Source: Candidatus Saccharimonadota bacterium (GTDB lineage: Bacteria > Patescibacteriota > Saccharimonadia > Saccharimonadales > UBA4665). Taken from it: a stretch of 32,000 nt of DNA. The translations under genes were made by a program, and so were the position numbers. Below are positions 7,438-32,000 of this stretch, piece after piece. The notes beneath the pieces were generated by a model. The model ran no database searches and had not been told where the DNA came from. It saw nothing but the letters and a program-made list of their open reading frames with translations. The stretch is from the NCBI GenBank assembly GCA_016700375.1, contig CP065016.1:120001-152000 (forward strand). The letters are read 5' to 3'. The number at the start of each line of letters is the position of its first letter. Position 1 is the stretch's first letter.

Positions 7438-7442
7438 TCGCT

Positions 7443-7595
7443 ATGCTCCAATTACCAATTACCAATTACCAATTACCAATGAATTATCAATTTTCAGTTA
7501 CCAATGAAGCTGCAAATGCCACATCGCTACAAGCTAATGTATTGAAAATTGAAAATTGTAAACTGCAAATTGCAGCGACTGAAAGGAGTGTCTAA
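7443..7595 (+). CDS. Spacer-spanning mini-ORF A (50 aa) in the rpoB-rpoC heptamer-repeat spacer
   Basis: The product is MLQLPITNYQLPMNYQFSVTNEAANATSLQANVLKIENCKLQIAATERSV*. This is the only stop-free frame of the spacer. The ATG lies 5 nt after the rpoB TAG, with the SD GGGGAGGAGG inside the rpoB 3' end. The stop TAA overlaps the rpoC ATG (TAATG, 7593-7597). Repeat units are (CCAATTA)x4 at 7448-7475 and an ATTGAAA-type array at 7541-7575. Confidence 0.5.
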   Translation: MLQLPITNYQLPMNYQFSVTNEAANATSLQANVLKIENCKLQIAATERSV

Positions 7596-11686: not shown

Positions 11687-13207
11687 CTACAGAGTAAGAA
11701 GGTCGATACTTCTAATAGATATACCCCGTCGAGATGCATGGTCTACCGCGATATATCCAATTGCATTGCGTAAATCAGGCAATGCATGCGAGTATGCTTC
11801 TTTCCTACTGCCCGCCGATTGTAAGCCGTGTTTTCGTGCGTAACGTTTCATCTGTGCTGGCAGCATGGCAAAGCTGTCGATTTGATCTCTTTCCTGGGCA
11901 AGGACCAGGTGCAGCAACTCTGTCGGTAAAATGAGTATCTGAGCAAGGACTTTATAGTCTTCACTTCTCATGTTGCGTAGATTAAGTAGACCTGACGAAT
12001 GAAGACTTATTGTTTTAGCACGGACGTTTTCAGGCGCAAGACCGAGTGCGGTAGGCATGATATTTACAATCCTGACGGGGTCTAACCCCAAAGCAGCCAT
12101 AAAAGCCATACGAGCCTTGAGACTCTCTGGACTAATACTAAGTATGGAGGGGCTAGAGTTGATAAGAGTAGCAGGTTCAAACCCTAAATCTCGGATTGTT
12201 TGAAACTTTAACTTAACATGTTCGGTCGAGTTGCCTAAGCTACGCGGATTTACAGTAAAAATTCGCCTAGCGTTTAACCCCAAGGCTGTTGCATTATCAA
12301 ATTTTGCTTGTATATTCTCAATCGACATGCCAAGCACTGAGGGAAGAAAATTGATTGTCTTGACAGGGTTAATCCCCAGTGAGATCAAGGCATTATACAT
12401 TTCACTGATAGCCCTAACAGACCTGCCAATGACAATAGGGTCTTTATGTATAAGTTTTAATGCATCAAATCCTAAATTAGTTAGATTCTCTACTTTATAC
12501 TTAACAGTGTCTACAGATAGGCAAATCGCAGTCGGATAGGTATTAATAATTGCTACAGCGTTGATGCCAAGTGCTGTCATGCTTTCAACCTTTGTTCTTA
12601 TGTTTTCGGTTGAATACCCTAGGGCTGTCGGCACTTTGGCGATAACCGTATGTGCATCTAGGCCTAGGGCTGAGATATTATCAAATTTTTTTTGTATCTC
12701 TTCCGGCGCTAAACCAAGTACAATGGGGTATTTATGTATAATTTCTCGTTCATCCATACCAAGGGAATGCAGATTTTCAATTTTTATTCTGATGTTTTTG
12801 CCTGAAAAGCCAAGCGCTGAAGGAAGGCCTTGAACGATACTCGTTACATCAAGCCCCGCAGCCGTCATCTCACGTAAAGCTTCTATAGTGGTGCCTGAGG
12901 GGAAAAGGGTCGGATAGCGGTCGAGTATCTTTATGTATGTGCTGTGCATGGGGTGGTCAGAGCAACTCCAGCCAAGACTCTCACCAAAAAAAATGCGGCG
13001 CGCTTCGACGGTCTTAGCGATGAGCGTTGGTTGGCTATGTGGATTCATAACGCACGATGCCTCTATGATTAAGGGGTTTAGAGCAGTGATCTCCTCTTCT
13101 ATAATAGCCCTATTTGCAAGCGCGCTAAACCAGACCGCATCATCTGGATGCAGCTGAACCGCAATGTCGTCACATTGCTCAACTAGTCTAACATTCAGCT
13201 CAGACAT
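11687..13207 (-). CDS. mTERF-like repeat protein (about 10 tandem 32-aa repeats)
   Basis: The 506-aa ORF has regular repeats, for example IIHKYPIVLGLAPEEIQKKFDNISALGLDAHT and VIAKVPTALGYSTENIRTKVESMTALGINAVA. Their consensus is I-x3-P-x2-L-x2-S-x-E-x-I-x2-K-x3-L-x2-LG-x5, which matches the mTERF motif as I recall it. TATAAT (13218-13223, minus strand) lies 10 nt before the ATG. The gene is convergent with rpoC. Confidence 0.6.
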   Translation of the reverse strand: MSELNVRLVEQCDDIAVQLHPDDAVWFSALANRAIIEEEITALNPLIIEASCVMNPHSQPTLIAKTVEARRIFFGESLGWSCSDHPMHSTYIKILDRYPTLFPSGTTIEALREMTAAGLDVTSIVQGLPSALGFSGKNIRIKIENLHSLGMDEREIIHKYPIVLGLAPEEIQKKFDNISALGLDAHTVIAKVPTALGYSTENIRTKVESMTALGINAVAIINTYPTAICLSVDTVKYKVENLTNLGFDALKLIHKDPIVIGRSVRAISEMYNALISLGINPVKTINFLPSVLGMSIENIQAKFDNATALGLNARRIFTVNPRSLGNSTEHVKLKFQTIRDLGFEPATLINSSPSILSISPESLKARMAFMAALGLDPVRIVNIMPTALGLAPENVRAKTISLHSSGLLNLRNMRSEDYKVLAQILILPTELLHLVLAQERDQIDSFAMLPAQMKRYARKHGLQSAGSRKEAYSHALPDLRNAIGYIAVDHASRRGISIRSIDLLTL

Positions 13208-16503: not shown

Positions 16504-16508
16504 TCGCT

Positions 16509-16658
16509 ATGCTCCAATTATCAATTAGCAATTTACAATTTTCAATGAATGATCAATTAGCAATTACCAATGAAAAGCAGAATCGCCAATCGCTAATCGC
16601 CATTCCATCGATAATCGATAATCGAAAATCGGTAATCACGACTGAAAGGAGCCTGTAG
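16509..16658 (+). CDS. Spacer-spanning mini-ORF B (49 aa) in the rpsL-rpsG heptamer-repeat spacer
   Basis: The product is MLQLSISNLQFSMNDQLAITNEKQNRQSLIAIPSIIDNRKSVITTERSL*. The first 20 nt after and including the upstream stop (TAGTCGCTATGCTCCAATTA) are identical to spacer A. The stop TAG overlaps the rpsG GTG (TAGTG, 16656-16660). Degenerate CAATTAN and AATCGNN 7-mers are present. Confidence 0.5.
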   Translation: MLQLSISNLQFSMNDQLAITNEKQNRQSLIAIPSIIDNRKSVITTERSL

Positions 16659-17137: not shown

Positions 17138-17144
17138 ACAGCAA

Positions 17145-17175
17145 AAGAGATAAGGAGTAAGAGATAAGAGTTAAG
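17145..17175 (+). repeat. Left arm of heptamer-repeat stem flanking the four-helix-bundle gene
   Basis: The units are AAGAGAT AAGGAGT AAGAGAT AAGAGTT AAG. Bases 17146-17168 are complementary to 17547-17569 at 21 of 23 positions, by hand alignment. Confidence 0.6.
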
Positions 17176-17177
17176 AA

Positions 17178-17543
17178 ATGGCTGTCAATAATTTCAAAGA
17201 CTTAATTGCTTGGCAAAAATCTCATCTCCTGGTGCTAGAAATATATACAATAACAAGCACTTTTCCAAAGTCGGAGCAATTTGGCTTAACGAATCAACTT
17301 CGTAGAGCAGCGGTCTCGATTGTGTCAAATATTGCCGAAGGTTTTGGCCGTCGGACTGTAGCAGATAGAACGCACTTTTACGATATGGCACGAGCATCAT
17401 TGCATGAAGTTCAAGCTCAGCTTATGGTTGCGCGTGATGTTGGCTTCATGCAAGACACTGTACATGAGAAAATCGATACATTCAGCATAGAATGCCATAA
17501 AATATTGACAGGCTTAATTAATAAAACAAATGGTACGAAATAA
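17178..17543 (+). CDS. Four-helix-bundle protein (23S rRNA intervening-sequence protein family)
   Basis: It has the characteristic sequence FKDLIAWQKSHLLVLEIY..FPKSEQFGLTNQLRRAAVSIVSNIAEGFGR. The length is 121 aa. Confidence 0.85.
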   Translation: MAVNNFKDLIAWQKSHLLVLEIYTITSTFPKSEQFGLTNQLRRAAVSIVSNIAEGFGRRTVADRTHFYDMARASLHEVQAQLMVARDVGFMQDTVHEKIDTFSIECHKILTGLINKTNGTK

Positions 17544-17546
17544 GAT

Positions 17547-17569
17547 CTTATCTCTTACCTCTTAACTCT
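17547..17569 (+). repeat. Right arm of heptamer-repeat stem flanking the four-helix-bundle gene
   Basis: The sequence is CTTATCTCTTACCTCTTAACTCT (7-nt periodic CTCTTAN units), the reverse complement of the left arm. It runs directly into the fusA SD (TAAGGAG). Confidence 0.6.
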
Positions 17570-17580
17570 AAGGAGTTTAT

Positions 17581-19686: not shown

Positions 19687-20103
19687 ATGAGTAAAAAACC
19701 GACTGATCTAGATGATGTGGTGAACGTTATCTCGGATTTGACCGAGTTGTTTTCGACGCGCTTCGATAAAATGGATCAGCGCTTCGACAAAATGGATGAA
19801 CGCTTCGACAAAATGGATCAGCGCTTCGACAAAATGGACGAGCGCTTCGACAAAATGGATGAACGCATCAACAGCATCGATATGCGCCTGTTTAGCGTTG
19901 AGCAGAAGCTACTGGAGCATGACGTACAATTCGCAAAAATCAATGAACGTATCGACCATCTCTACAGTGTGCTAGACAGTCACATGAAGCGGATTGAGGA
20001 TATCGTGGCTGACAATGTAGCCCGCGACGCGCAACAAGCGCGCATGGAAAAGTGGATTTTCCAAATTGCCGATAAACTTGACCTAAAACTGAATTACGAA
20101 TAG
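19687..20103 (+). CDS. Small coiled-coil protein with RFDKMD(Q/E) heptad repeats
   Basis: The 138-aa product has five perfect 7-aa repeats. Its C-terminus (ARMEKWIFQIADKLDLKLNYE) matches the paralogs at 3325 and 21630. Confidence 0.7.
   Translation: MSKKPTDLDDVVNVISDLTELFSTRFDKMDQRFDKMDERFDKMDQRFDKMDERFDKMDERINSIDMRLFSVEQKLLEHDVQFAKINERIDHLYSVLDSHMKRIEDIVADNVARDAQQARMEKWIFQIADKLDLKLNYE
19759..19863 (+). repeat. 21-bp tandem repeat x5 (coding)
   Basis: The unit is CGCTTCGA(T/C)AAAATGGA(T/C)(CAG/GAA/GAG), repeated head to tail. A sixth degenerate unit follows at 19864-19884. Confidence 0.9.
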
Positions 20104-20145: not shown

Positions 20146-20359
20146 TACAGAGTATCTCGCGTGAGGGCGTTGCTGTAGTACGTTACAGCAATATGGACCG
20201 CGTGAACACCTATCAATTTAATAACCTAATATAATAAAGAAAGGATTCGCTGGCTCCCCGATAAGGGAAAAAGAGCAGCCCGAGCAAAAATCACATTTTT
20301 TACCCGGAGCGATGAGAAAAAACCGTAGGTTTTGTCTCATTACAGCGAAGCGTCAATTT

Positions 20360-23520: not shown

Positions 23521-24363
23521 CTAGCCAGCCTGTTTAATTGCTGCAATGTAATTTGGAAGCTGAAAAGTAAGCTCTATTTGACGAGGAGAGTCTGGCGATG
23601 CGCCATTAACTGCCCGCGTACATACTGTAGAATAATTAGGGTCGCTCACCAAGCGGTTATAAAAATCCATTCGTATGGAAGATAAGGTGTCTTCGTCCAA
23701 TGTTCTGTTGCCGACCCGATAGGGTGGCATAAAAGAGCCGCCAAGTTTAGAAGATAAACGAAGTGCGCTCTCACAAAAGCCATGATACTCTTCATCAAAC
23801 ACAGAGCCTGACAGTATCACCCCGCCAACCGCAAGGACACGCTTCATTTCATCTGCTAAAGCCAGAGCCTCATCCTGCGAAGGTGTCCAGTAAGATGCGT
23901 ATGAATCGTGTATGACATGAGCAGTTGCGTCTTTAAGTGTTCGAAGACCATCTAAGGCCAGTCCAGCTATAACGTCGTTTCCTGCGCTAGCTTGATACTG
24001 TGCGTTTAAGTCATCTTGTTCAAGGGCTATTCTACGGCTATTTCTGAACCAAGATAAAAAATCGGATCTTCCTGCGCCAATGTCGATAACTGTTTTGCCT
24101 TCGGCGAAGTTTGTTAGTGCTGCTAGGGAAATTCCGTGAGCACGAGCTAATTGCGAGCCGGTTCGGTCGGTACGTACTCGATCACTCGCTATACCTGAGT
24201 TCTTACGGTATGTAGTGAGCCGTGCGGTACATGCATTGACGGCAAGGGGTATTGCCGAATGTCCATCTATAACCGTACGCAGATTCTGTAAGTAAATGCT
24301 GGACGGTTCTGTGTCTACACGGTATCTAAATACATCTTGAGCCGTCCCAGTATGTCTCTGCAT
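23521..24363 (-). CDS. Class I SAM-dependent methyltransferase (putative), leaderless
   Basis: Motif I is [10 protein letters not shown], with a downstream [10 protein letters not shown] strand. ATG 24363 lies 7 nt after TGaTATACT on the minus strand (-10 at 24371-24376). The track start at 24393 is a TTG. Confidence 0.6.
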
Positions 24364-24422
24364 AGTATATAGTATATCATAAAATATAGACAAAGTAAAT
24401 AATATGTGCTATAATAGGAAGC
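24364..24422. promoter_or_regulatory. AT-rich divergent promoter region for two leaderless genes
   Basis: On the + strand, TGcTATAAT (24407-24415) ends 7 nt before ATG 24423. On the - strand, TATACT (24371-24376) lies 7 nt before ATG 24363. Confidence 0.55.
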
Positions 24423-26024
24423 ATGACGGTTGCTCCTAAGGTCGAGACAGCTGCAATGATGGAGGGTGCTGAAAAACCCTTTGAGGGCTTTGGTGCTGAA
24501 CTAGATGCAGCTAACTTTTACTTTAAGCACACGCACGCTATAGACCCGCAGCGCGTGGAGCGAGTAGTTACCTTATTAGAAGATTTTTCTGGTCCCAGAA
24601 TGAATTCGGCAGCAAAAAGCGCAGTTTTCTTAAGGGATATTTGCTCCGGCGTCGAAGATTCCTTGCTGGCACGTAATGCCACCTGGGCGCTGAATACGTA
24701 CCGCACTAATACCTTTGATACTGAAGAAACCCAAACGTATAAGCTGGCGATTGCTCGAGACGTTAAGCGAATTGACGATTTTAGTCGCGAGATGTTCGAA
24801 CAGGAGGCACGGACCTGTTCTGTTGCTGGTATGGTCTTTAGCGGTATTACACGAGTACTGAGCAAAAAAGAGCGCCGGGCGCACCAAGACCAACGGTGGT
24901 TGCGCGATTCTAACGCAAATGCTGGCGAGCTCCAAGAGCTTCTCGATACCAATAAACGGGCCATAAACCTTGAAGCAATGGTACACTACAGCGCCGAGGT
25001 GCTGGATGATCTCATGGTCGCTACCGGAGCGGTAGACGGCGTAAGGATGCCCGATGACGAAGTTCTCATGCGCAGAATCAGAGATGTAGATGTCATTTTG
25101 GGGCCGTTCCTGGAGATTATTGGGCATGATGGCATGGCAATGGCGCTCAGAAGCCATGCGAATATAGTTCGTCTACAAAAAACCGGGAACGTAGCCTTTG
25201 TCGACAGGGCAAAGAACATGCTCGAGCAATATACCGATAGAGAATATATTGCCGGCCAAATCGAAAAACTTTACGGGGAGCTTTTTGGAGGCGACAGCGT
25301 TGTAGAGCATGTTATTAGCAACAAAACCCAACACGGTATAGCCGTAGGTGAATCTGCATTTCGCTGGAGTGAATGTTATGCGAATGCTCGTGCGGTGTGG
25401 CGCGTAAAATCAGTTGGCTCGCTTGCAATGAAATTGTATCGGTACAGTAAAGAAGGGAAATCAACTGCGACGCCGCAAGATGTTATCGGTGTAACGCTCA
25501 TCACTGACGACCCTGAACAGCTGAATAGCCTTTATCCCATGCTAGTTTTGAGCGTAGAATCATCACAAGCCATTAAGACGACTGTCGCCCCAAGCAAGAA
25601 GAGCGCCTATCATGTTCGGGGTGACGAGTTGTATGTGGAATTGATTTCTAAAGTGGTAAGCGAGCAATTCACTGAGGATGCCTGTACATTGCTTAGTCTC
25701 AGCCCGGTAGAAATAGATACCAAGAACGACGAAAATAACCTTCATCAAACCGCAAAAGCGACATTTACGTTTCATGCTTTGCCGCTTGAAGTGCAGTGCC
25801 AGACAGAATGGGCACGTGAGCGTTCTCGTATTGGAGCGGGCGCACATGGTTTTCATAAAAGCGGCGTCAGAGAGTTAAACCAGCATTTTATAACACAACT
25901 CCATAGTAGAAGGGCTGAATTAGGCACCATGGAGCTCACGAAGGCAAGTGCCGATAGTACCAGAAGATTTATGTCAAGCGCCGCTCAGAGAGGCATACCA
26001 CCGGTAAACTACGGCATTGTTTAA
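24423..26024 (+). CDS. RelA/SpoT-domain nucleotidyltransferase-like protein with unknown N-terminal region of about 300 aa
   Basis: The C-terminal half carries the ordered synthetase-type motifs WRVKSVGSLAMKL, DVIGVTLI, KKSAYHVRG and PLEVQCQTEWARERSRIGAGAHGFHK. These correspond to RxKS..S..K, D..G.R.I, Y.S.H and EvQIRT..h.wAe..H..YK. No HD hydrolase motif was recognised. Confidence 0.6.
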   Translation: MTVAPKVETAAMMEGAEKPFEGFGAELDAANFYFKHTHAIDPQRVERVVTLLEDFSGPRMNSAAKSAVFLRDICSGVEDSLLARNATWALNTYRTNTFDTEETQTYKLAIARDVKRIDDFSREMFEQEARTCSVAGMVFSGITRVLSKKERRAHQDQRWLRDSNANAGELQELLDTNKRAINLEAMVHYSAEVLDDLMVATGAVDGVRMPDDEVLMRRIRDVDVILGPFLEIIGHDGMAMALRSHANIVRLQKTGNVAFVDRAKNMLEQYTDREYIAGQIEKLYGELFGGDSVVEHVISNKTQHGIAVGESAFRWSECYANARAVWRVKSVGSLAMKLYRYSKEGKSTATPQDVIGVTLITDDPEQLNSLYPMLVLSVESSQAIKTTVAPSKKSAYHVRGDELYVELISKVVSEQFTEDACTLLSLSPVEIDTKNDENNLHQTAKATFTFHALPLEVQCQTEWARERSRIGAGAHGFHKSGVRELNQHFITQLHSRRAELGTMELTKASADSTRRFMSSAAQRGIPPVNYGIV

Positions 26025-26280
26025 AGGTTTACCAAAAATCACTCGTAGTATTATGTGCAACGGGTTGACAGGGGTTTGGGTTTTGTGATACCCTGTTGGG
26101 TACATACAAACATTTCCGCATGGTGATGTGAGGTAGGCCCCGCCAGAGGCGAGGAACCCCCGACCGCCATTTTCTTAATGTCACTGTACAAGACATTAAC
26201 CGCGGATGGGTGAGTATCAATATCAATAACTCTTATAAAAAAGGAGCGTGTGGGTTCATGTGAACCTACGCAACATAACT

Positions 26281-26901
26281 ATGAAGGCACTCATAACGAG
26301 AAAGGTTGGCATGACCAGTACCATCGCTGAAGATGGTACGACTCAGGCTGTAACCCTGCTTTCCGCTAGTCCCTGTGTGATTACACAGGTGAAAACCGAT
26401 GAAACAGACGGGTATACCGCTGTACAAATCGGCTGCGAGGAAGTCAAAGAACACAAAGTAGCAAAACCACAGGCCGGTCATCTCAAGCCAGCCAAACAAA
26501 TTGTGCGTATTATGCGCGAGTTCCGTGTAGCGGAAGTCACCGAAGACCTCAAAGTTGGAGAAACACTCAACGCCGAGGTCTTTTCAGTTGGTGACACGGT
26601 GCATGTAACTGGCACGAGCAAGGGTAAGGGTTGGGCTGGTACTATTCGCCGCCACAACTTCCACCGCGGCCGCAAGACGCATGGTGGCCGTAGCTACCGC
26701 CGCGTTGGTTCTATAGGTTCTATGTACCCTCAACACATTTTGCCCGGCAAAAAGATGGCCGGACACCTCGGTCACGACCAAGTCACTGTACGCAATCTCA
26801 AAATTGCACTTGTCGACGCTGAAAAGGGGTATATCGGTGTTGTGGGAGCTGTACCTGGTCCGCGCAAAGGTATTGTTATAATTCGCGGAGACGAATTATG
26901 A
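26281..26901 (+). CDS. rplC: 50S ribosomal protein L3
   Basis: MKALITRKVGMTSTIAEDGTTQAVTLL.. gives the canonical L3 N-terminus from ATG 26281. In-frame GTGs at 26248 and 26260 lie nearer the SD AAGGAG (26241-26246) and are alternatives. Confidence 0.9.
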   Translation: MKALITRKVGMTSTIAEDGTTQAVTLLSASPCVITQVKTDETDGYTAVQIGCEEVKEHKVAKPQAGHLKPAKQIVRIMREFRVAEVTEDLKVGETLNAEVFSVGDTVHVTGTSKGKGWAGTIRRHNFHRGRKTHGGRSYRRVGSIGSMYPQHILPGKKMAGHLGHDQVTVRNLKIALVDAEKGYIGVVGAVPGPRKGIVIIRGDEL

Positions 26902-27041
26902 AAATGAATAGATTACCCATTACCCTGTCACCTGTCACCTTGGATTATCCTGTAGCCTGTCACCATGGTTATACGTCACAGGTTACACCTACGTCACACG
27001 TCACACGTGACACGCTAATCAGCGATGAAAGGAGCTTCTAA
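26898..27041 (+). CDS. Spacer-spanning mini-ORF C (47 aa) in the rplC-rplD spacer
   Basis: The product is [47 protein letters not shown]. The start overlaps the rplC stop (ATGA, 26898-26901) and the stop overlaps the rplD ATG (TAATG, 27039-27043). The 7-mers are ATTACCCx2, TGTCACCx2, GTCACACx2 and GTGACAC. Confidence 0.5.
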   Translation: MKMNRLPITLSPVTLDYPVACHHGYTSQVTPTSHVTRDTLISDERSF

Positions 27042-27700
27042 TGGCCGTACCAACCTATACTGGTGCTGGCGTAAAAGCCACAACTCCCGCAAAACTCAGT
27101 AAAGAAATCTTTGCAGTGGAAGTAAAAAACCACCAATTACTGAAGCAAGCGTATGAGGCATATCTCGCAAATGGCCGAGACAACCTAGCCGTCACGAAAA
27201 CTCGGGGACTCGTGAGTGGTGGTGGTCGCAAGCCATGGAAACAGAAGGGTACCGGCCGAGCTCGTTTTGGTAGCTCTCGCAACCCAATTTGGCGCGGCGG
27301 TGGCATTGTCTTTGGCCCTACTGGCGAAGAAAACTATACCAAGAAAATTTCTACGACCAGCAAGCGCGTTGCACTGCGGCAGGCCTTAAGCCTTGCAAAT
27401 GCTGGCGGGAAGCTCATTGTTCTTGAAAAGCTTGCCAGCCGTGAAGGCAAAACAGCCGAAATGGCGAAATTACTCACAAAAGTCGGTGTTACTAGAAGCG
27501 CACTCGTTGTTGTTGCTAGTAAGAATGCCGAGCTCGTGAACGCTACCGCGAACTTACAGAATGTCATGCTGGTAAGCGCAAAGTACCTCAATGTGTTCGA
27601 CATTATGAATGCCGACCATATCGTTATGACGAGCGACGCCCTCAAGGTCGTCGAAGAATGGCTGAAGCCAGTTGCTAAGACCGCGAAGGAGGCCAAATAA
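27041..27700 (+). CDS. rplD: 50S ribosomal protein L4
   Basis: The sequence is GGGRKPWKQKGTGRARFGSSRNPIWRGGGIVFGP. Confidence 0.96.
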   Translation: MAVPTYTGAGVKATTPAKLSKEIFAVEVKNHQLLKQAYEAYLANGRDNLAVTKTRGLVSGGGRKPWKQKGTGRARFGSSRNPIWRGGGIVFGPTGEENYTKKISTTSKRVALRQALSLANAGGKLIVLEKLASREGKTAEMAKLLTKVGVTRSALVVVASKNAELVNATANLQNVMLVSAKYLNVFDIMNADHIVMTSDALKVVEEWLKPVAKTAKEAK

Positions 27701-28113
27701 TGCACGTTTTAAAACCACGTTTGAGTGAAAAGGCATTTGGTCTTAGCCAGACAACGAACACGTTTGCTATTGATGTTCCAAGCGAGCTCAACAAGTACGA
27801 AGTTGCCGCTGTTGTTAAGAAGCAATTTGATGTAGAGATTAAGTCTGTTCGACTGGTGAACCGCAAGGGTAAAGTCAAGCGTGTTATGAACACGACTGGC
27901 AAGCGTAGTAGTAACCGAAAGGGTGTTCAGGGCGATGTAAAGAAGGCGTATGTCACGCTCAAAGCGGGCAGTCACCTGCCATTCTTTGCCGCTGCCGAAG
28001 AAGAAATTGCGAAGGCTGCAGCCGATAAAGCCAAAGCCGCTAAAAAAGACGCTGCTCCTGCTAAGAAAGCCGGCGGCCTTAAGAAGCTTGTCGGCAAGAA
28101 GGAGGCAAAGTAA
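27700..28113 (+). CDS. rplW: 50S ribosomal protein L23 (with Lys/Ala-rich C-terminal tail)
   Basis: It has an L23 core (KPRLSEKA..NKYEVAAVVKKQFDVEIKSVRLVN). The start overlaps the rplD stop (TAATG). Confidence 0.93.
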   Translation: MHVLKPRLSEKAFGLSQTTNTFAIDVPSELNKYEVAAVVKKQFDVEIKSVRLVNRKGKVKRVMNTTGKRSSNRKGVQGDVKKAYVTLKAGSHLPFFAAAEEEIAKAAADKAKAAKKDAAPAKKAGGLKKLVGKKEAK

Positions 28114-28114
28114 T

Positions 28115-28228
28115 ATGAATCATGAATCACGAATCATGAATCTAGCATGGGAAGTTATCGGCCGCAAGGCGGCAGGCATGATTCATACTACATACTTCAT
28201 GCTTCCGCGACTGAAAGGAGCTGCATAA
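28115..28228 (+). CDS. Spacer-spanning mini-ORF D (37 aa) in the rplW-rplB spacer
   Basis: The product is MNHESRIMNLAWEVIGRKAAGMIHTTYFMLPRLKGAA*. The ATG lies 1 nt after the rplW TAA, with AAGGAGG in the rplW 3' end. The stop overlaps the rplB ATG (TAATG, 28226-28230). It is a paralog of mini-ORF E. Confidence 0.55.
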   Translation: MNHESRIMNLAWEVIGRKAAGMIHTTYFMLPRLKGAA

Positions 28229-29058
28229 TGGCAATTAAACAATACAATCCGACGACGCCTGGTCGTCGCGGTATGTCTAGCCAAGACTTTGACGCGGTGA
28301 CTACACGTAAGCCACTTCGCTCACTGGTTGTTACCAAGCGCCGAGGCAATGGCCGCAATAACCAAGGTCGCATAACGACTCGTCATCAGGGCGGCGGCGC
28401 ACGCAAGCACTATCGCTTGGTAAACTTTGACTTCAAGGGTGAAGGTGTTGTTGAGCACATAGAGTACGACCCAAACCGGAGCGCACGAATTGCACGTATT
28501 AAAGACGCCAAAGGTGCATACCACTATGTACTCGCTGCGAGCGGTATGAAGCAAGGCCAGAAACTGAGCGCCGATGCCGAAGCAGCTATAGAAATGGGCA
28601 ATCGGTTGCCGCTAGCAAACATTCCGGTTGGTACCACAATTCATGCTTTAGAAATGAAGCCAGGGCGCGGCGCACAAGCAGTTCGCAGTGCTGGCAACAG
28701 CGCTATGCTCATGGCCAAAGAAGGCGATTATGCACAGGTTCGTATGCCAAGTGGTGAGGTTCGCAAGTTCCTCCTCGTATGTACTGCCAGCATTGGTGTG
28801 GTCGGTAACGAACAACACCAGAATGTAAAAATCGGCAAAGCTGGCCGTAGTCGTCACCTTGGCAAGCGCCCAAGTGTCCGTGGCGTTGTGATGAACGCTG
28901 TTGACCACCCGCACGGTGGTGGTGACGGTGGTCGTCACCGTATGGCGAAGGCGCCTCGTACGCCATGGGGTCAAAAGACACTTGGCTACAAAACTCGCCG
29001 CCGTAAAGATACTAGCAATATGATCGTAAGAAGCCGCCACGCGGCCAAGAGGAAATAA
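28228..29058 (+). CDS. rplB: 50S ribosomal protein L2
   Basis: MAIKQYNPTTPGRRGMS.. gives the canonical N-terminus at 28228. The motif ..VMNAVDHPHGGGDG.. is present. Confidence 0.96.
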   Translation: MAIKQYNPTTPGRRGMSSQDFDAVTTRKPLRSLVVTKRRGNGRNNQGRITTRHQGGGARKHYRLVNFDFKGEGVVEHIEYDPNRSARIARIKDAKGAYHYVLAASGMKQGQKLSADAEAAIEMGNRLPLANIPVGTTIHALEMKPGRGAQAVRSAGNSAMLMAKEGDYAQVRMPSGEVRKFLLVCTASIGVVGNEQHQNVKIGKAGRSRHLGKRPSVRGVVMNAVDHPHGGGDGGRHRMAKAPRTPWGQKTLGYKTRRRKDTSNMIVRSRHAAKRK

Positions 29059-29061
29059 GCG

Positions 29062-29406
29062 ATGGCAAGTCCTAACCCCAATAAAACATGTGGAACCTGT
29101 GCTCTCGGCGAACCACAAATCGATACTTTTTTCACATGCGGCAATTACAAACGTGTTCCACAATTTGATTCAACGGACGCTATAAATTGTAACGTTGACA
29201 ACACAAACATCATTAGTTTGGGATGGAGTGTCCCTGGTCTAGAAGGGGTATGGCTAGATAGATACCCAAAGAACGCTAGCTGCGGACCATGCGCTGGTCT
29301 ACTAGCCGCGACGCGCTCTCAGGTTGTATGTCACTTAACAAACATTGCTCTTCGGAAAGAGAACAGTGACTGGTGCGGTCAATGGCAGCCAGAAGGGAGT
29401 TTTTAA
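29062..29406 (+). CDS. Cys-rich 114-aa protein inserted between rplB and rpsS
   Basis: The ATG lies 3 nt after the rplB stop, and the stop TAA abuts the rpsS ATG. There are 8 Cys in two similar modules (C10-x2-C13-x12-C26-x16-C43 and C74-x2-C77-x12-C90-x14-C105). The 3' end carries the rpsS SD (GAAGGGAG). Confidence 0.6.
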   Translation: MASPNPNKTCGTCALGEPQIDTFFTCGNYKRVPQFDSTDAINCNVDNTNIISLGWSVPGLEGVWLDRYPKNASCGPCAGLLAATRSQVVCHLTNIALRKENSDWCGQWQPEGSF

Positions 29407-29679
29407 ATGAGTCGTTCATTAAAGAAGGGGCCGTTTATCGATCCGAAGCTCGCGAAAAAAGTCGTGGCGCTTGGCCCAGAGGATCGCACCATTATCAAAA
29501 CATGGGCCCGTGCTAGCACAATTGCCCCAGAGTTTGTTGGTAAAACATTTGCCGTACACAATGGCAAAGTCCACGTACCGGTTTTTGTTACCGAAAATAT
29601 GGTTGGCCACAAGCTCGGTGAATTTAGCCCAACGAGAAAGTTTAGGTCTCATGGCGGAAAGCTAGCCAAAGGTAAATAG
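29407..29679 (+). CDS. rpsS: 30S ribosomal protein S19
   Basis: The sequence is [39 protein letters not shown]. Confidence 0.96.
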
Positions 29680-29680
29680 G

Positions 29681-29797
29681 ATGAATAAAGAATCAAGAAT
29701 CATGAATCATGTTAAGGAAATTATCAGCAGCGAAGCTGCTGGCATGATTCATACTTCATACTTCATGATTCAGAAGCCGGAGGATATATGTCTGTAA
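29681..29797 (+). CDS. Spacer-spanning mini-ORF E (38 aa) in the rpsS-rplV spacer
   Basis: The product is MNKESRIMNHVKEIISSEAAGMIHTSYFMIQKPEDICL*. The ATG lies 1 nt after the rpsS TAG. The stop at 29795-29797 lies 7 nt past the rplV ATG at 29788. Confidence 0.5.
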   Translation: MNKESRIMNHVKEIISSEAAGMIHTSYFMIQKPEDICL

Positions 29798-30168
29798 AAG
29801 CAGAATCTAAAGGCGTACGCTTGAGCCCTCGTAAGGTTGCCGCTGTTGCGACGCTTGTACGAGGTCGCACTGTAGCCGATGCTATTGTCATTCTTGAACA
29901 TACACCCCGCCGGGCAGCTCTTTCTGTGCTTAAGACAATCAAGAGTGCTCAAGCAAATGCCGCCCACAACCACAACTACAAAGCCGATACCCTAGTCATT
30001 ACTGAAATTACGGTCAATCATGGCCCACGTATGAAACGATTTCGACCTGCTGCCATGGGGCGCGCGCTGCCATACATGAAGCGGAGCAGCCACATACGAG
30101 TTCTCGTCGATGGTGAACAACGTCCAACCAAAGCTGTTAAACCTGTAGCGAAGGAGACTAAGTCATGA
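29788..30168 (+). CDS. rplV: 50S ribosomal protein L22
   Basis: The sequence is RLSPRKVAAVATLVRGRTVADAIVILEHTPRRAA..ANAAHNH.. Confidence 0.95.
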   Translation: MSVKAESKGVRLSPRKVAAVATLVRGRTVADAIVILEHTPRRAALSVLKTIKSAQANAAHNHNYKADTLVITEITVNHGPRMKRFRPAAMGRALPYMKRSSHIRVLVDGEQRPTKAVKPVAKETKS

Positions 30169-30305
30169 AAATCCTAAGCACTAAGCACGAAATTCTAAAC
30201 AAATTCAAATATTCTAATGTTTCAAATTTTCAAATTTTGGAACTTGTTCATTGTTTAGCATTTAGAAATTCGAATTTTGGATTTACTCCAGAAAGGAGTG
30301 CATGA
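30165..30305 (+). CDS. Spacer-spanning mini-ORF F (46 aa) in the rplV-rpsC spacer
   Basis: The product is MKILSTKHEILNKFKYSNVSNFQILELVHCLAFRNSNFGFTPERSA*. The start overlaps the rplV stop (ATGA, 30165-30168). The stop overlaps the rpsC ATG (TGATG, 30303-30307). Confidence 0.5.
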   Translation: MKILSTKHEILNKFKYSNVSNFQILELVHCLAFRNSNFGFTPERSA

Positions 30306-30934
30306 TGGGTCAGAAAGTTAACCCCATTAGCATGCGCCTGCAAGCCAATAAAGATTGGCGGAGCAAATGGTTTGTCGGCAAACGACAATACGCCGATTAT
30401 CTTGCCCAGGATCTGCAGGTCCGCAAGCTCATTCAGGATAAGTTTGGCTCACGCGGTGCTATTAATAAAGTCGACATAGAGCGTTCGCCTAACCTCGTTA
30501 CCGTTACAATCGCCACAGCAAAAGCTGGCGTGGTCATTGGTCGTGGTGGTCAAGGCGCCCAAGAACTGAAGGCCGCCATAGAAAAGGTATATGGCGTACC
30601 GGCACGTGTAAATATTGAGGAAGTAAAAAAACCTGACCTGTACGCGAAGCTAGTTGCCGAGAACATTGCACATCAGCTAGAGCGACGTATGAGCTTCCGC
30701 CGCGCTATTAAAAGCGCGAGTGCCGCCAGTATGCGTGCCGGAGCAAAAGGTGTCCGAATAGAAGTTGCCGGCCGCCTGAACGGTGCTGAAATGAGCCGCC
30801 GCGAAAAAGAAGCTGTTGGTTCAGTGCCACTACATACCATCCGTGCAGATATTGACTTTGCCTCTGCCCGAGCAAACTGGCCCGGCGCAGGCATTATTGG
30901 TATCAAAGTTTGGATATACAAGGGGGACAAATAA
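30305..30934 (+). CDS. rpsC: 30S ribosomal protein S3
   Basis: MGQKVNPISMRL.. gives the canonical N-terminus from ATG 30305. The ATG at 30302 would add one Met. Confidence 0.95.
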   Translation: MGQKVNPISMRLQANKDWRSKWFVGKRQYADYLAQDLQVRKLIQDKFGSRGAINKVDIERSPNLVTVTIATAKAGVVIGRGGQGAQELKAAIEKVYGVPARVNIEEVKKPDLYAKLVAENIAHQLERRMSFRRAIKSASAASMRAGAKGVRIEVAGRLNGAEMSRREKEAVGSVPLHTIRADIDFASARANWPGAGIIGIKVWIYKGDK

Positions 30935-30935
30935 A

Positions 30936-31082
30936 ATGATTTCATCATTTCAATTATCCTTTGGCCTGTCACCTGTCACATTGGATTATCCTGTCGCAAT
31001 TACCAATTGTTACATGTCACATGTCACGCCAATGTCACAGGTTACAGGTGACATGTTAATCGCGACTGAAAGGAGCTTTTAA
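30936..31082 (+). CDS. Spacer-spanning mini-ORF G (48 aa) in the rpsC-rplP spacer
   Basis: The product is [48 protein letters not shown]. The ATG lies 1 nt after the rpsC TAA, and the stop overlaps the rplP ATG (TAATG, 31080-31084). It is a paralog of mini-ORF C. Arms 30965-30984 and 31029-31048 are complementary at 18 of 20 positions. Confidence 0.55.
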
Positions 31083-31495
31083 TGTTGCTCCCAAAAAGAA
31101 CTAAATTCCGCAAAGTCCGCAAGGGCAAGATTCGCGGTGTTGCCACAGCTGGCAATTACATTGCCTACGGCGAATACGCTTTGCAAGCACAAGGTCACGA
31201 ACGTATAACGAGCCGACAAATTGAGGCCAGCCGTCAGGCGATGACAAGGTACATTAAGCGCGGTGGAAAAATCTGGATTCGCATTTTCCCGCATACGCCC
31301 GTTACCCGCAAGCCACTGGACGTCAAAATGGGTAGTGGCAAGGGTTCGCCTGAGTTTTTTGTTGCCAAAGTTCGCCCGGGCACCATTATGTTTGAAATGC
31401 AGGGTGTCAGTGAGGAAACTGCAAGAGAAGCTATGCGCCTCGCTGGTCACAAGCTGCCAGTCAAGACAAAATTTGTCGTGAAGGAGGGCGTGTAA
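31082..31495 (+). CDS. rplP: 50S ribosomal protein L16
   Basis: The sequence is [44 protein letters not shown]. Confidence 0.96.
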
Positions 31496-31608
31496 TGAGG
31501 TATAAGCATTCAGCGGAAAGGGGTAAGGGGTTTTCGTCTAGAACCCTTACTACTTACTACTTACTACTTACTACTTCTGAAGTGATGCCCGAAGGGAGGA
31601 ACGTATGA
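31495..31608 (+). CDS. Spacer-spanning mini-ORF H (37 aa) in the rplP-rpmC spacer
   Basis: The product is [37 protein letters not shown]. The start overlaps the rplP stop (TAATG, 31493-31497), and the stop overlaps the rpmC ATG (ATGA, 31605-31608). A (CTTACTA)n array runs about 31546-31576. The hairpin is GTAAGGGGTT..GAACCCTTAC. Confidence 0.5.
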   Translation: MRYKHSAERGKGFSSRTLTTYYLLLTTSEVMPEGRNV

Positions 31609-31805
31609 AAATAGCCGATATTCGTAAGCTTACTACGGCAGAATTGACCAAAGAAACAGTAAAGCTAAAAGATGAAATTGCCGAACTGCGTCGTCATATA
31701 TACATGGGTGATAACCAAAACGTACGAGATGTACGTAACAAGCGCAAAGACCTTGCTCGTATGCTCACCGTTTTAAGCGAAAATTTAGTTAAGGAGACGA
31801 AATAA
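31605..31805 (+). CDS. rpmC: 50S ribosomal protein L29
   Basis: The sequence MKIADIRKLTTAELTKETVKLKDEIAELR.. is L29-like in length and position. Confidence 0.9.
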   Translation: MKIADIRKLTTAELTKETVKLKDEIAELRRHIYMGDNQNVRDVRNKRKDLARMLTVLSENLVKETK

Positions 31806-31927
31806 TGGAAAATCCAAATTCCAAATTCCAAACTCCAAACAAATTCCAGCACTCAAATTCCAACGAAGCTCATTTGGAACTTGGAACTTGGAACTTGGAG
31901 CTTACAGCTCCTGAAAGGAGTCTGTAG
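31805..31927 (+). CDS. Spacer-spanning mini-ORF I (40 aa) in the rpmC-rpsQ spacer
   Basis: The product is MENPNSKFQTPNKFQHSNSNEAHLELGTWNLELTAPERSL*. The start overlaps the rpmC stop (TAATG, 31803-31807). The stop TAG lies 2 nt before the rpsQ ATG. The CCAAATT-type array faces a complementary GAACTTG x3 array. Confidence 0.5.
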   Translation: MENPNSKFQTPNKFQHSNSNEAHLELGTWNLELTAPERSL

Positions 31928-31929
31928 TT

Positions 31930-32000
31930 ATGGCCAAAACTATTACTGGTGTCGTCACGAGCAATAAGGCCGACAAGACCATTGTCGTCACTGTGCGAGA
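31930..32000 (+). CDS. rpsQ: 30S ribosomal protein S17 (3' end cut by window edge)
   Basis: MAKTITGVVTSNKADKTIVVTVR.. is a typical S17 N-terminus in the expected operon position. Confidence 0.85.
   Translation, partial: MAKTITGVVTSNKADKTIVVTVR

What the first reader, a model, noticed from the sequence alone, without database searches (positions are those of the whole stretch)
28114..29787. Spacers D and E are paralogs that keep a long hairpin through compensatory changes in the apical stem
The two spacers align unit for unit over about 100 nt.
- Outer stem: in E, ATGAATCATG (29702-29711) pairs perfectly with CATGATTCAT (29743-29752). D has the equivalent 3' segment at 28177-28186.
- Apical stem: the sequence differs but still pairs. 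D has GCCGC-aag-GCGGC (28161-28173). E has CAGCAGC-gaa-GCTGCTG (29725-29741).

Co-variation of this kind argues for a conserved RNA structure, in addition to the open reading frame (peptides MNHESRIMN..AAGMIHTTYFM and MNKESRIMN..AAGMIHTSYFM). A structure that must be read through by ribosomes, and that sits next to the downstream SD, could time or gate translation of rplB and rplV. It could also be an RNase III-type processing site. Both functions are inference.
Basis: partly seen in the sequence, partly recalled or inferred. Interest (0 to 1): 0.75.

Follow-up and report, generated by a model that had tools for sequence, protein, structure and literature searches.

The report
Translated palindromic inserts between ribosomal genes
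The two look-alike spacers are copies of a repeated, hairpin-forming insert that has colonised gene-to-gene junctions in one group of Saccharibacteria, and each copy carries a bridging mini reading frame and its own ribosome-binding site, apparently so that the next gene is still translated.

Summary
Spacers D (28114-28227) and E (29680-29787) are paralogs (79% over 98 nt). Both can form the stated hairpin and both carry the stated ORFs.

The two copies alone show one compensatory pair and one broken pair. Fourteen distinct family copies show real covariation in the apical stem.

- D and E are not rplB- or rplV-specific regulators. The closest relatives have a bare TAATG overlap at these junctions.
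- The same family sits at seven different junctions.
- At least eight sister families share one architecture: a start next to the upstream stop, a 5' heptamer array, a GC-rich apical stem, a roughly complementary 3' array, a Shine-Dalgarno site, and a stop on the downstream ATG.
- 58 of 63 spacers carry such a bridging ORF; 7.6 are expected by chance.
- The reading frame differs between family members, and substitutions show no codon periodicity.
- Hairpins fold better on the antisense strand.

Best reading: a MITE/RPE-like intercistronic insert, tolerated because it relays translational coupling. RNA-level roles are untested. I found no description of it.

The parts
28114..28227 (+). Spacer/element D between rplW (27700-28113) and rplB (28228-29058)
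   Evidence: best covariance-model hit in the window, 112.6 bits
28116..28228 (+). D bridging mini-ORF (37 aa, MNHESRIMN...RLKGAA). ATG lies 2 nt after the rplW stop; its TAA overlaps the rplB ATG (TAATG).
28115..28142 (+). D 5' arm: ATGAATC x4. The third unit is ACGAATC, which removes the in-frame TGA that a perfect array would give.
   Evidence: (TRF), read
28161..28173 (+). D apical stem-loop GCCGC-aag-GCGGC. The aligned 7-bp stem has one G.A mismatch.
28177..28205 (+). D 3' arm: CATGATTCAT followed by degenerate TTCATAC heptamers
28217..28220 (+). Element-borne Shine-Dalgarno core (GGAG within GACTGAAAGGAG) for rplB
   Evidence: (repeat family D4)
29680..29787 (+). Spacer/element E between rpsS (29407-29679) and rplV (29788-30168)
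   Evidence: 96.3 bits
29681..29797 (+). E bridging mini-ORF (38 aa). ATG lies 2 nt after the rpsS stop; it ends 10 nt inside rplV.
29681..29711 (+). E 5' arm: ATGAATC-type heptamers x4.4. The units ATAAAGA and TCAAGAA avoid in-frame TGA.
29725..29741 (+). E apical stem-loop CAGCAGC-gaa-GCTGCTG (7 perfect pairs)
29743..29772 (+). E 3' arm (CATGATTCAT ACTTCAT ACTTCAT GATTCA)
   Evidence: (I3)
29779..29783 (+). Shine-Dalgarno (GGAGG) for rplV
26902..27040 (+). Sister element A (rplC>rplD), CCTGTCA/ACGTCAC heptamers; bridging ORF 26898-27041
   Evidence: (D2)
30169..30301 (+). Sister element F (rplV>rpsC); bridging ORF 30165-30305
30935..31081 (+). Sister element G (rpsC>rplP), paralog of A (77%)
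   Evidence: (D2)
31496..31604 (+). Sister element H (rplP>rpmC), CTTACTA heptamers; bridging ORF 31495-31608
31806..31929 (+). Sister element I (rpmC>rpsQ), AAATTCC / TTGGAAC arrays; bridging ORF 31805-31927
7438..7594 (+). Sister element rpoB>rpoC (CCAATTA / ATTGAAA arrays)
   Evidence: (D3)
16504..16657 (+). Sister element rpsL>rpsG, paralog of the rpoB>rpoC element (74%)
   Evidence: (D3)

Best explanation
D and E are two copies of a lineage-restricted repeat family. It is one of at least eight families of 95-165-nt palindromic 'bridge' elements that occupy the stop/start junctions of co-translated genes in one Saccharibacteria clade.

Anatomy (shown):
- an ATG that overlaps or abuts the upstream stop codon
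- a 5' array of tandem heptamers
- a short GC-rich apical stem-loop
- a 3' array of roughly complementary heptamers
- the element's own Shine-Dalgarno site (often GACTGAAAGGAG)
- a stop codon that overlaps the downstream ATG (TAATG or ATGA)

Dynamics (shown): elements are gained, lost and swapped as whole units or blocks between very close genomes, and they duplicate to new junctions within a genome.

Mechanism (inferred): the element is an insertional, largely selfish repeat. It is tolerated in essential operons because it rebuilds the junction it interrupts.
1. The old SD and start position now launches a mini-ORF.
2. Ribosomes translating the mini-ORF melt the hairpin.
3. They terminate on top of the next start codon, whose SD the element supplies.
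4. Translational coupling is thereby relayed across the insert.

On this reading the hairpin, including its self-complementary apical stem, is a property of the inverted-repeat architecture. It is not a regulator designed for rplB or rplV. It may still affect mRNA processing or stability.
For: Presence/absence and mobility:
- In 80 Saccharibacteria loci the ancestral junctions are -4 to +10 nt. Spacers of 60-165 nt are sporadic.
- Filled and empty sites differ by a clean insertion at the TAATG/TAAATG overlap.
- 14 distinct D/E copies lie at 7 junctions in 7 genomes. The covariance model separates them (77-118 bits) from everything else (47 bits or less), and none is found in L011-L080.
- L004 has two copies differing by 1 of 113 nt.
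- L111 has its own burst family at 5 junctions.
- A-family copies occur at der>pth and purC>purB.
- Block replacement: the arms of F are identical in the window and L001, but the central ~45 nt is unrelated. In L002, G is identical to the window copy for its first 60 nt and then A-like.

Bridging ORF:
- 58 of 63 spacers carry an ATG-ORF that starts -4..+12 from the upstream stop and ends -6..+15 around the downstream ATG. Shuffles predict 7.6.
- 60 of 63 have an open forward frame, against 17 of 63 on the reverse strand (Fisher 3e-16).
- Deviant heptamers fall where a perfect array would give an in-frame TGA.

Openness matters, not the peptide:
- The SD region is read as RLKGA in D and as ATERS in L007.
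- Window-versus-L104 substitutions in the mini-ORFs are 5, 5 and 6 at codon positions 1, 2 and 3.

Hairpin not selected on the mRNA: sense A.C 147 against G.T 95, and antisense folds are more stable.

SD masking consistent with coupling: P(unpaired SD) is 0.04 (I), 0.18 (rpsL>rpsG), 0.24 (F) and 0.25 (G). F and I carry CTCC-NGAAA-GGAG hairpins that lie inside the mini-ORF.

No known RNA family, promoter or terminator signal.
Against: - No transposase, fixed-length target duplication or other mobilisation signature was found. The element ends share only 2-4 nt with the target (TAAT, AA).
- All copies have one orientation relative to transcription. This could reflect selection or a directional mechanism.
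- The spacers are not neutral. Window-versus-L104 divergence is 1.8% (16 of 884), against 3.9-5.3% at third codon positions in the quiet parts of neighbouring genes. No array differs in length. Some constraint beyond an open frame is therefore acting.
- The SD is only half-masked in D (0.48) and E (0.61).
- The excess of A.C over G.T on the sense strand is unexplained.
- There is no transcript, ribosome-profiling or proteomic evidence that the mini-ORFs are translated.
Confidence: 0.6

Rival explanations
1. Selected cis-acting RNA structure. The hairpin in the polycistronic mRNA is maintained because it acts as an RNase III or other processing site, an mRNA stabiliser, or a gate that sets the translation rate of the downstream cistron.
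For: - Family-wide pairing with double changes in the apical stem.
- Spacers are 2-3 times less diverged than quiet third codon positions, with no array length changes.
- The SD is partly sequestered in several families.
- In the same window, a 23S-rRNA-IVS-protein gene (PF05635) is bracketed by inverted heptamer arrays (24 nt, 88% complementary). Known rRNA IVS stems are cut by RNase III (PMC4990558).
- Correia elements are a precedent for RNase III cleavage of repeat hairpins in mRNAs (PMC2649163, PMC10969869).
Against: - The elements are absent or replaced at the same junctions in genomes as close as L104.
- The same family sits upstream of seven unrelated genes.
- The hairpin is weaker on the sense strand than on the antisense strand, with A.C rather than G.U mismatches.
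- Fold z-scores are modest (D -1.1).
- Two family members lack the apical stem, and the D orthologs each carry a broken apical pair.
- A ribosome-traversed ORF would keep the stem melted on translated mRNA.
Confidence: 0.2
2. DNA-level element. The palindromes act as folded single-stranded or cruciform DNA, for example as recombination sites analogous to integron attC or REP/RAYT substrates, or as binding arrays for a repeat-reading protein. The RNA hairpin and the ORF are constraints imposed by where the element sits.
For: - The antisense strand forms the better hairpin in at least five families. Sense versus antisense energies are -26.5 versus -51.0 for rpsL>rpsG, -37.7 versus -52.9 for rpmC>rpsQ, and -25.5 versus -47.8 for L005 rplV>rpsC.
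- Whole-block and apical-cassette replacement with identical arms.
- Dense clusters of synonymous differences abut the elements.
- An mTERF-repeat protein is encoded nearby.
Against: - No recombinase or RAYT was identified.
- Heptamer sequences differ between families, so a single sequence-specific binder is unlikely.
- The strand asymmetry rests on a few independent family-level events that were then amplified within arrays.
Confidence: 0.1
3. Genuine small-protein genes: D and E encode functional 37-38-aa peptides.
For: - The ORFs are open, start with ATG and are preceded by the old SD.
- Public gene callers annotate many of them.
- Peptide motifs such as AAGMIH are shared.
Against: - The reading frame differs between members of the same nucleotide family.
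- Substitutions show no third-position excess (5, 5, 6).
- The peptides are translations of heptamer arrays.
- The A-family profile finds only 18 proteins in 5.8 billion, all unnamed or 'hypothetical protein'.
- Presence and absence vary between near-identical genomes.
Confidence: 0.05
4. Local simple-sequence expansion: heptamer arrays grew in place by replication slippage at each junction, without any transfer between junctions.
For: - Heptanucleotide repeats are the commonest long SSR class in many prokaryotes (Mrazek 2007, as summarised in PMC4679880).
- The D/E unit ATGAATC contains the ATGA stop/start overlap.
Against: - Non-repetitive parts (apical region, SD tail) are shared between copies at different junctions. 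Near-identical copies (1 of 113 nt different) lie at two junctions in L004.
- Paired inverted arrays are not expected from slippage alone.
- No array length differences between the window and L104.
Confidence: 0.05

Closest known systems
Rickettsia palindromic elements (RPEs)
   Same: Palindromic repeats of about 100-150 bp in a reduced genome. They are tolerated because they keep a reading frame open and are translated (PMC10969869).
   Different: RPEs insert in frame inside genes and become part of the host protein. The elements here sit exactly between genes, have their own start and stop overlapping the neighbours' stop and start, carry an SD, and have arms made of tandem heptamers. Sequence similarity to RPEs was not tested.
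Correia repeat-enclosed elements (Neisseria) and ERIC elements: MITE-like repeats co-transcribed with genes
   Same: Dispersed, insertion-polymorphic inverted-repeat elements in transcribed regions. Their RNA hairpins can be cut by RNase III or alter mRNA decay (PMC2649163, PMC10969869).
   Different: Here there is no defined TIR plus TA duplication and no promoter-like ends. The orientation is strictly single, an ORF bridges the element, an SD is built in, and the arms are heptamer arrays. RNase III cleavage is untested.
REP/BIME intercistronic palindromes
   Same: Extragenic palindromes inside operons, able to act on mRNA segments.
   Different: REPs are 20-40 nt, untranslated and linked to RAYT transposases. 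The elements here are 95-165 nt, traversed by an ORF, and replace the junction's translation signals.
Heptanucleotide tandem repeats (cyanobacterial STRR; TAACTGA repeats of Beggiatoaceae)
   Same: Tandem 7-mers in intergenic regions, including just upstream of start codons inside ribosomal-protein operons (PMC4679880).
   Different: Those are single direct arrays of one heptamer. TAACTGA contains stop triplets (TAA, TGA), and the arrays are often found without an SD. Here two inverted arrays form a hairpin, the heptamer differs per family, the frame used is stop-free, and a strong SD follows.
rRNA intervening sequences (IVS) with S23p/PF05635 ORFs
   Same: Selfish inserts bounded by inverted repeats that form a long stem. 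In this window a PF05635 gene (17178-17543) is bracketed by inverted heptamer arrays (PMC4990558).
   Different: IVSs lie in rRNA helices and are excised by RNase III. D and E lie in mRNA junctions, carry no cargo gene, and are translated through.
Ribosomal-protein autoregulatory leaders (for example the S10/L4 leader)
   Same: Structured RNA within r-protein operons next to a ribosome-binding site.
   Different: No Rfam match. Not conserved in position even between sister genomes. The same element is found upstream of unrelated genes.

Membership tests
MITE (miniature inverted-repeat transposable element) | Terminal/long inverted repeats in a short non-autonomous element | tested here: met
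   Arms pair in 63-80% of cells across 14 copies. Palindrome alignment gives 19-24 Watson-Crick pairs in D and E.
MITE (miniature inverted-repeat transposable element) | Multiple dispersed copies with insertion polymorphism between close genomes | tested here: met
   7 junctions and 7 genomes for the D/E family. Empty sites in L001, L002, L003 and L007. Two copies differing by 1 of 113 nt in L004.
MITE (miniature inverted-repeat transposable element) | Target-site duplication of fixed length | tested here: inconclusive
   Only 2-4 nt shared between the ends (TAAT at rplW>rplB, AA at rpsC>rplP). The SD+TAATG is repeated imperfectly.
MITE (miniature inverted-repeat transposable element) | Cognate autonomous IS/transposase with matching ends | not testable with these tools
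   Whole genomes of the clade could not be scanned. None was seen in the 32-kb window.
Rickettsia palindromic elements | Inserted in frame inside protein-coding genes and translated as part of the host protein | tested here: not met
   The elements lie between stop and start codons and have their own ATG and stop.
Rickettsia palindromic elements | Reading frame kept open through a palindromic repeat | tested here: met
   58 of 63 bridging ORFs, against 7.6 expected.
Correia/CREE | RNase III cleavage of the transcript hairpin | not testable with these tools
   No transcript data. The hairpin exists in silico.
Correia/CREE | Promoter-generating ends / IHF site | tested here: not met
   Promoter-like sites in 26000-32000: 5 found against 6.9 expected, none at D or E.
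REP/BIME | 20-40-nt imperfect palindrome units, untranslated | tested here: not met
   Elements are 95-165 nt, have heptamer-array arms and are traversed by ORFs.
Known structured RNA families (Rfam), including r-protein leaders | Match to a curated covariance model | tested here: not met
   0 hits at gathering thresholds. At E<=1, only sub-threshold miRNA-precursor look-alikes, on the minus strand of element I and the plus strand of element F.
Conserved cis-regulatory element of rplB/rplV | Conserved position in orthologous operons | tested here: not met
   rplW>rplB is empty in most of the 80 loci, including L001 and L002. rpsS>rplV is filled by other families or is empty.
Heptanucleotide SSR / STRR | Tandem heptamer arrays in intergenic DNA | tested here: met
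   TRF period-7 arrays in every spacer.
Heptanucleotide SSR / STRR | Copy-number (length) polymorphism by slippage | tested here: not met
   No length difference in 7 shared spacers between the window and L104.
Intrinsic terminator | GC-rich stem followed by a T-run | tested here: not met
   No terminator-like site at D or E.

The most novel reading that the evidence does not exclude
These are a previously undescribed class of self-propagating 'translational relay' cassettes. They specifically target Shine-Dalgarno/stop-start overlaps of coupled genes, and the host has come to depend on or exploit them. Hairpin strength, SD masking and mini-ORF translation would set the relative output of successive ribosomal-protein cistrons. 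The heptamer arrays would give frame-independent openness, and possibly a platform for a repeat-reading factor such as the neighbouring mTERF-like protein. The nucleotide-level constraint and the antisense-biased pairing would then reflect a dual life: translated mRNA on one strand, and a folded recombination or propagation substrate on the other.
Probability: 0.15. Interest if true: 0.9.

Novelty: new variant of a known kind. Interest (0 to 1): 0.66.

Why it matters
Ribosomal-protein and RNA-polymerase operons of streamlined ~1-Mb genomes are among the most compact and conserved stretches of bacterial DNA. Here, up to about twenty junctions in a row carry 100-165-nt palindromic inserts. These turn over between genomes that differ by roughly 10% at third codon positions, yet almost every insert keeps a start-to-stop bridging frame and brings its own ribosome-binding site.

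This provides a natural experiment on two questions:
- how strongly downstream genes depend on translational coupling
- how selfish repeats can neutralise their own cost

It also has a practical consequence for annotation of these Saccharibacteria (CPR) genomes. Dozens of 35-55-aa 'hypothetical proteins' in these operons are probably element-borne bridging frames, not genes. Covariation in such palindromes should not be read as evidence for a regulatory RNA.

Tried and rejected
- Rfam at gathering and at E<=1: nothing meaningful.
- Promoter/terminator scan: no excess.
- DNA-pattern scan for D/E in viral contigs: 0 hits.
- The same scan in metagenome contigs: 23 hits, none a true D/E copy. Several were analogous heptamer-arm hairpins in other organisms.
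I searched the A-family profile instead.
- Exact-protein look-up of the IVS-protein gene: only one 936-nt contig, so no context.
- Strong purifying selection: I first read the 1.8% spacer divergence against 10.5-13.9% at third/four-fold sites this way. I then found that the genic differences are clustered in tracts (variance/mean 2.9), so the fair comparison is 3.9-5.3%. The constraint is real but only 2-3 fold.
- Homing-like co-conversion: rejected. Third-position divergence is not reduced next to the elements (11.7% at 0-30 nt, 17.1% at 30-60 nt).
- Literature searches: no description of these elements in Saccharibacteria or Patescibacteria.
Full report
**Context.** The window is a Saccharibacteria (TM7) chromosome segment.
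- Gene order: rpoB-rpoC, rpsL-rpsG-fusA-tuf, rpsJ and the S10 operon.
- Its L2 protein is 100% identical to those of two 'Candidatus Saccharimonadales' MAGs.
- The window is 96-97% identical in nucleotides to contig ERZ27268724 k119_145503 (L104).
- Spacer D (28114-28227) separates rplW from rplB. Spacer E (29680-29787) separates rpsS from rplV.

**Checking the observation.**
- D and E are 79% identical over 98 nt.
- Both fold into a hairpin with a GC-rich apical stem.
- Both contain the stated ORFs.

In detail, the claimed 'compensatory changes' between D and E come to one C-G/A-T exchange plus one pair that is broken in D. Fold z-scores are modest (-1.1 and -2.7). The antisense strands fold as well or better.

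The arms are tandem heptamers: ATGAATC x4 on the 5' side and its complement, decaying to ACTTCAT, on the 3' side. Several pairing registers are therefore possible.

**The thing is a class, not a pair.** Almost every intergenic spacer of the transcription/translation operons in the window has the same construction with a different heptamer.
- rpoB>rpoC and rpsL>rpsG are paralogs of each other.
- rplC>rplD and rpsC>rplP are paralogs of each other.
- rplV>rpsC, rplP>rpmC and rpmC>rpsQ follow the same plan.
- In L104 the pattern continues through rpsQ>rplN ... rpsK>rpsD.

The shared parts are:
- an ATG overlapping or next to the upstream stop
- a 5' heptamer array
- a central segment, often a short GC-rich stem with a 3-nt loop
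- a 3' array roughly complementary to the first
- an SD (commonly GACTGAAAGGAG)
- a stop overlapping the next ATG

**Comparative evidence.** In 80 Saccharibacteria loci around rplB, the normal state of all eight junctions is -4 to +10 nt. Long spacers are sporadic.

L001 and L002 are as close to the window as L104 is. Their third-position divergences are 12.4% and 8.9%, against 10.5% for L104. Yet they differ from the window at most junctions:
- rplW>rplB is the bare overlap AAGGAGGCTAAATAATG.
- rpsS>rplV holds unrelated families.
- rpsC>rplP is empty in L001.

Filled sites look like clean insertions at the stop/start overlap.

The D/E family itself has 14 distinct copies at seven junctions. 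The junctions are rplW>rplB, rpsS>rplV, rplV>rpsC, rpsQ>rplN, rplE>rpsN, rpsE>rplO and rpsM>rpsK. The copies come from seven genomes and fall into two subfamilies, ATGAATC/GATTCAT and GAGACAA/GACTCAT.
- L004 holds two copies that differ at 1 of 113 positions.
- A covariance model built from the family scores these copies at 77-118 bits and everything else at 47 bits or less. There are no hits in the more distant loci L011-L080.
- Other genomes have their own burst families, for example ACTACAA arrays at five junctions in L111.
- A-family copies also sit at non-ribosomal junctions: der>pth in L113 and purC>purB in L114.

Elements also evolve by block exchange. The arms of F are identical in the window and L001 while the central ~45 nt is unrelated. 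G in L002 is identical to the window's G for 60 nt and then resembles A.

**Structure and covariation.** On the 14-copy alignment:
- 71% of cells pair, against 29-48% for slid partners.
- The covariation score exceeds all 500 shuffles.
- In the apical helix, 4 of 7 pairs change on both sides. Three different perfect 7-bp stems occur (CAGCAGC, CAGCTGC, CAGTCGC).
- A heptamer-periodic AU/GC exchange distinguishes the two subfamilies in both arms.

So the hairpin is maintained. Against that, two copies have no apical stem. The orthologous D copies of the window and L104 each carry a different broken apical pair, and 3 of their 5 differences fall in that stem.

- In strand-symmetric arm alignments, sense-strand A.C mismatches (147) outnumber G.T (95).
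- Antisense folds are on average 4 kcal/mol more stable (Wilcoxon p = 0.0013). The gap is dramatic in several families.
- For D and E there is no sense-strand advantage.
- These counts are inflated by amplification within arrays. I therefore treat the direction as informative, not the p-value.

**The ORF.**
- 60 of 63 spacers of 60-200 nt have an open forward frame, against 17 of 63 on the reverse strand and 18.7 expected from shuffles.
- 58 of 63 have an ATG-initiated frame that starts within -4..+12 of the upstream stop and ends within -6..+15 of the downstream ATG, against 7.6 expected. At the left end there are 18 ATGA and 15 TAATG overlaps. At the right end there are 31 TAATG and 15 ATGA overlaps.
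- Imperfect heptamers in D and E (ACGAATC, TCAAGAA) fall exactly where a perfect ATGAATC array would create an in-frame TGA.

The peptide itself does not seem to matter.
- Members of the same nucleotide family are read in different frames. The SD region is read as RLKGA in D and as ATERS in L007.
- The 16 window-versus-L104 substitutions split 5/5/6 over codon positions.
- An A-family peptide profile finds only 18 proteins in 5.8 billion, all unnamed or 'hypothetical'.

**Constraint.** Spacers differ from L104 at 1.8% of sites, with no length changes. Raw third-position divergence is 10.5%, but that figure is inflated by dense tracts of differences, several of which abut elements (variance/mean 2.9). 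Against the quiet parts of genes (3.9-5.3%) the spacers are still 2-3 fold less diverged (p = 2e-5). The elements are therefore not free-drifting junk. An open frame, a fixed length (a 7-nt slip shifts the frame), the SD and some pairing could together account for this, but I cannot apportion it.

**Mechanism proposed.**
- Shown: architecture, turnover, multi-junction copies, bridging frames, built-in SD.
- Inferred: the insert is tolerated because it relays translational coupling. The former SD/start drives the mini-ORF. Translating ribosomes open the hairpin and, in several families, a CTCC...GGAG stem that masks the new SD. P(unpaired SD) is 0.04-0.25 in I, F, G and rpsL>rpsG, and 0.48 and 0.61 in D and E. 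Termination then occurs on the next start codon.
- Unknown: how copies spread. No transposase or fixed target duplication was seen.

**Comparison with known systems.** The closest are:
- Rickettsia palindromic elements: translated palindromes, but located inside genes.
- Correia and ERIC MITEs: co-transcribed hairpins, with RNase III or RNase E effects (PMC10969869, PMC2649163).
- REP/BIMEs.
- Heptanucleotide repeats such as STRR and TAACTGA arrays, which also occur inside r-protein operons (PMC4679880).
- rRNA intervening sequences (PMC4990558).

None of these combines inverted heptamer arrays, exact stop/start targeting, a bridging ORF and a portable SD. Literature searches found no description in Saccharibacteria or Patescibacteria.

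**Verdict.** The compensatory-change argument is weak for the pair but holds for the family. The regulatory interpretation is not supported as stated. The underlying phenomenon is a new variant of palindromic intergenic repeats, of above-average interest.

Noticed in passing
window 17138-17580: A gene for a 23S-rRNA-intervening-sequence protein (PF05635, also bAvd-like; 17178-17543) sits between rpsG and fusA. It is bracketed by inverted heptamer arrays (AAGAGAT x4.6 at 17145-17176; TCTTAAC x3.4 at 17546-17569; 24-nt arms, 88% complementary). It looks like a cargo-carrying version of the same kind of element, or an IVS-like insert in an mRNA.
   Followed up: partly
window 11687-13207 (- strand): A 506-aa protein with mTERF repeats (PF02536, E = 2e-25), a helical-repeat nucleic-acid-binding fold that is unusual in bacteria. 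It is encoded between rpoC and rpsL. Whether its presence tracks the heptamer elements was not tested.
   Followed up: no
window 29062-29406: A Cys-rich 114-aa ORF with no Pfam match is inserted between rplB and rpsS. That junction holds 124-585 nt in about two dozen of the 80 related loci and only 2-13 nt in the rest.
   Followed up: partly
window 23521-26024: Two ORFs without Pfam matches lie between rpsJ and rplC. The minus-strand one (23521-24393, with a VIDIGAG motif like SAM-dependent methyltransferases) differs from L104 at only 5 of 873 sites. The other (24423-26024) shows 19/9/21 differences at codon positions 1/2/3, which suggests relaxed constraint.
   Followed up: partly
window 27041-27100, 28010-28113, 31082-31160, 30100-30164: Window-versus-L104 synonymous differences are not spread evenly. 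They form dense tracts at gene ends that abut elements: the rplD 5' end, rplW 3' end, rplP 5' end and rplV 3' end. The variance/mean ratio is 2.9, against 0.9 in shuffles. This may reflect recombination tracts that end at the heterologous inserts.
   Followed up: partly
window 16504-16657, 31806-31929, 7438-7594; L005 7594-7738: In several families the two arms are complementary only if G.U pairs are allowed on the antisense strand, which means one A.C mismatch per heptamer on the mRNA strand. Antisense folds are then 10-25 kcal/mol more stable than sense folds. Unexplained.
   Followed up: partly
window 30280-30300 and 31905-31925: Short anti-SD/SD hairpins (ACTCC-AGAAA-GGAGT, GCTCC-TGAAA-GGAGT) lie inside the bridging ORFs of elements F and I. 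In the rpoB>rpoC and rpsL>rpsG elements, the 5' end (GTCGCTATGCTCC) pairs with the 3' SD/start region.
   Followed up: partly
L025 5886-6000, L045 4886-5012, L057 5501-5609; window ~20230-20300: A different, non-heptamer spacer family (…AAGGGAAAAGAGCAGCCAGAGC…CCCTGCGCGATGAGAAAAACCGCCAGGTTTGTCT…) occupies r-protein junctions in more distant Saccharibacteria. A similar GGGAAAAAGAGCAGCC motif lies upstream of tuf in the window. It is not in Rfam at gathering threshold.
   Followed up: no
L099 94-198, L084 3880-3959, L089 2249-2347, L086, L092, L095, L098: Hairpins with heptamer-array arms ((ATGAATT/ATGAGTT)n ... (AATTCAT/AACTCAT)n) occur between genes in unrelated metagenome contigs, for example atpD>atpC, upstream of tig, and between a Clp-like gene and a mraY-like gene. 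Heptamer-armed palindromes may therefore be much more widespread than this clade. In L099 they do not carry a bridging ORF.
   Followed up: partly
window 19758-19860: A 21-nt tandem repeat (x4.9, 90% matches) lies inside a 138-aa coiled-coil ORF (19687-20103) inserted between fusA and tuf.
   Followed up: no
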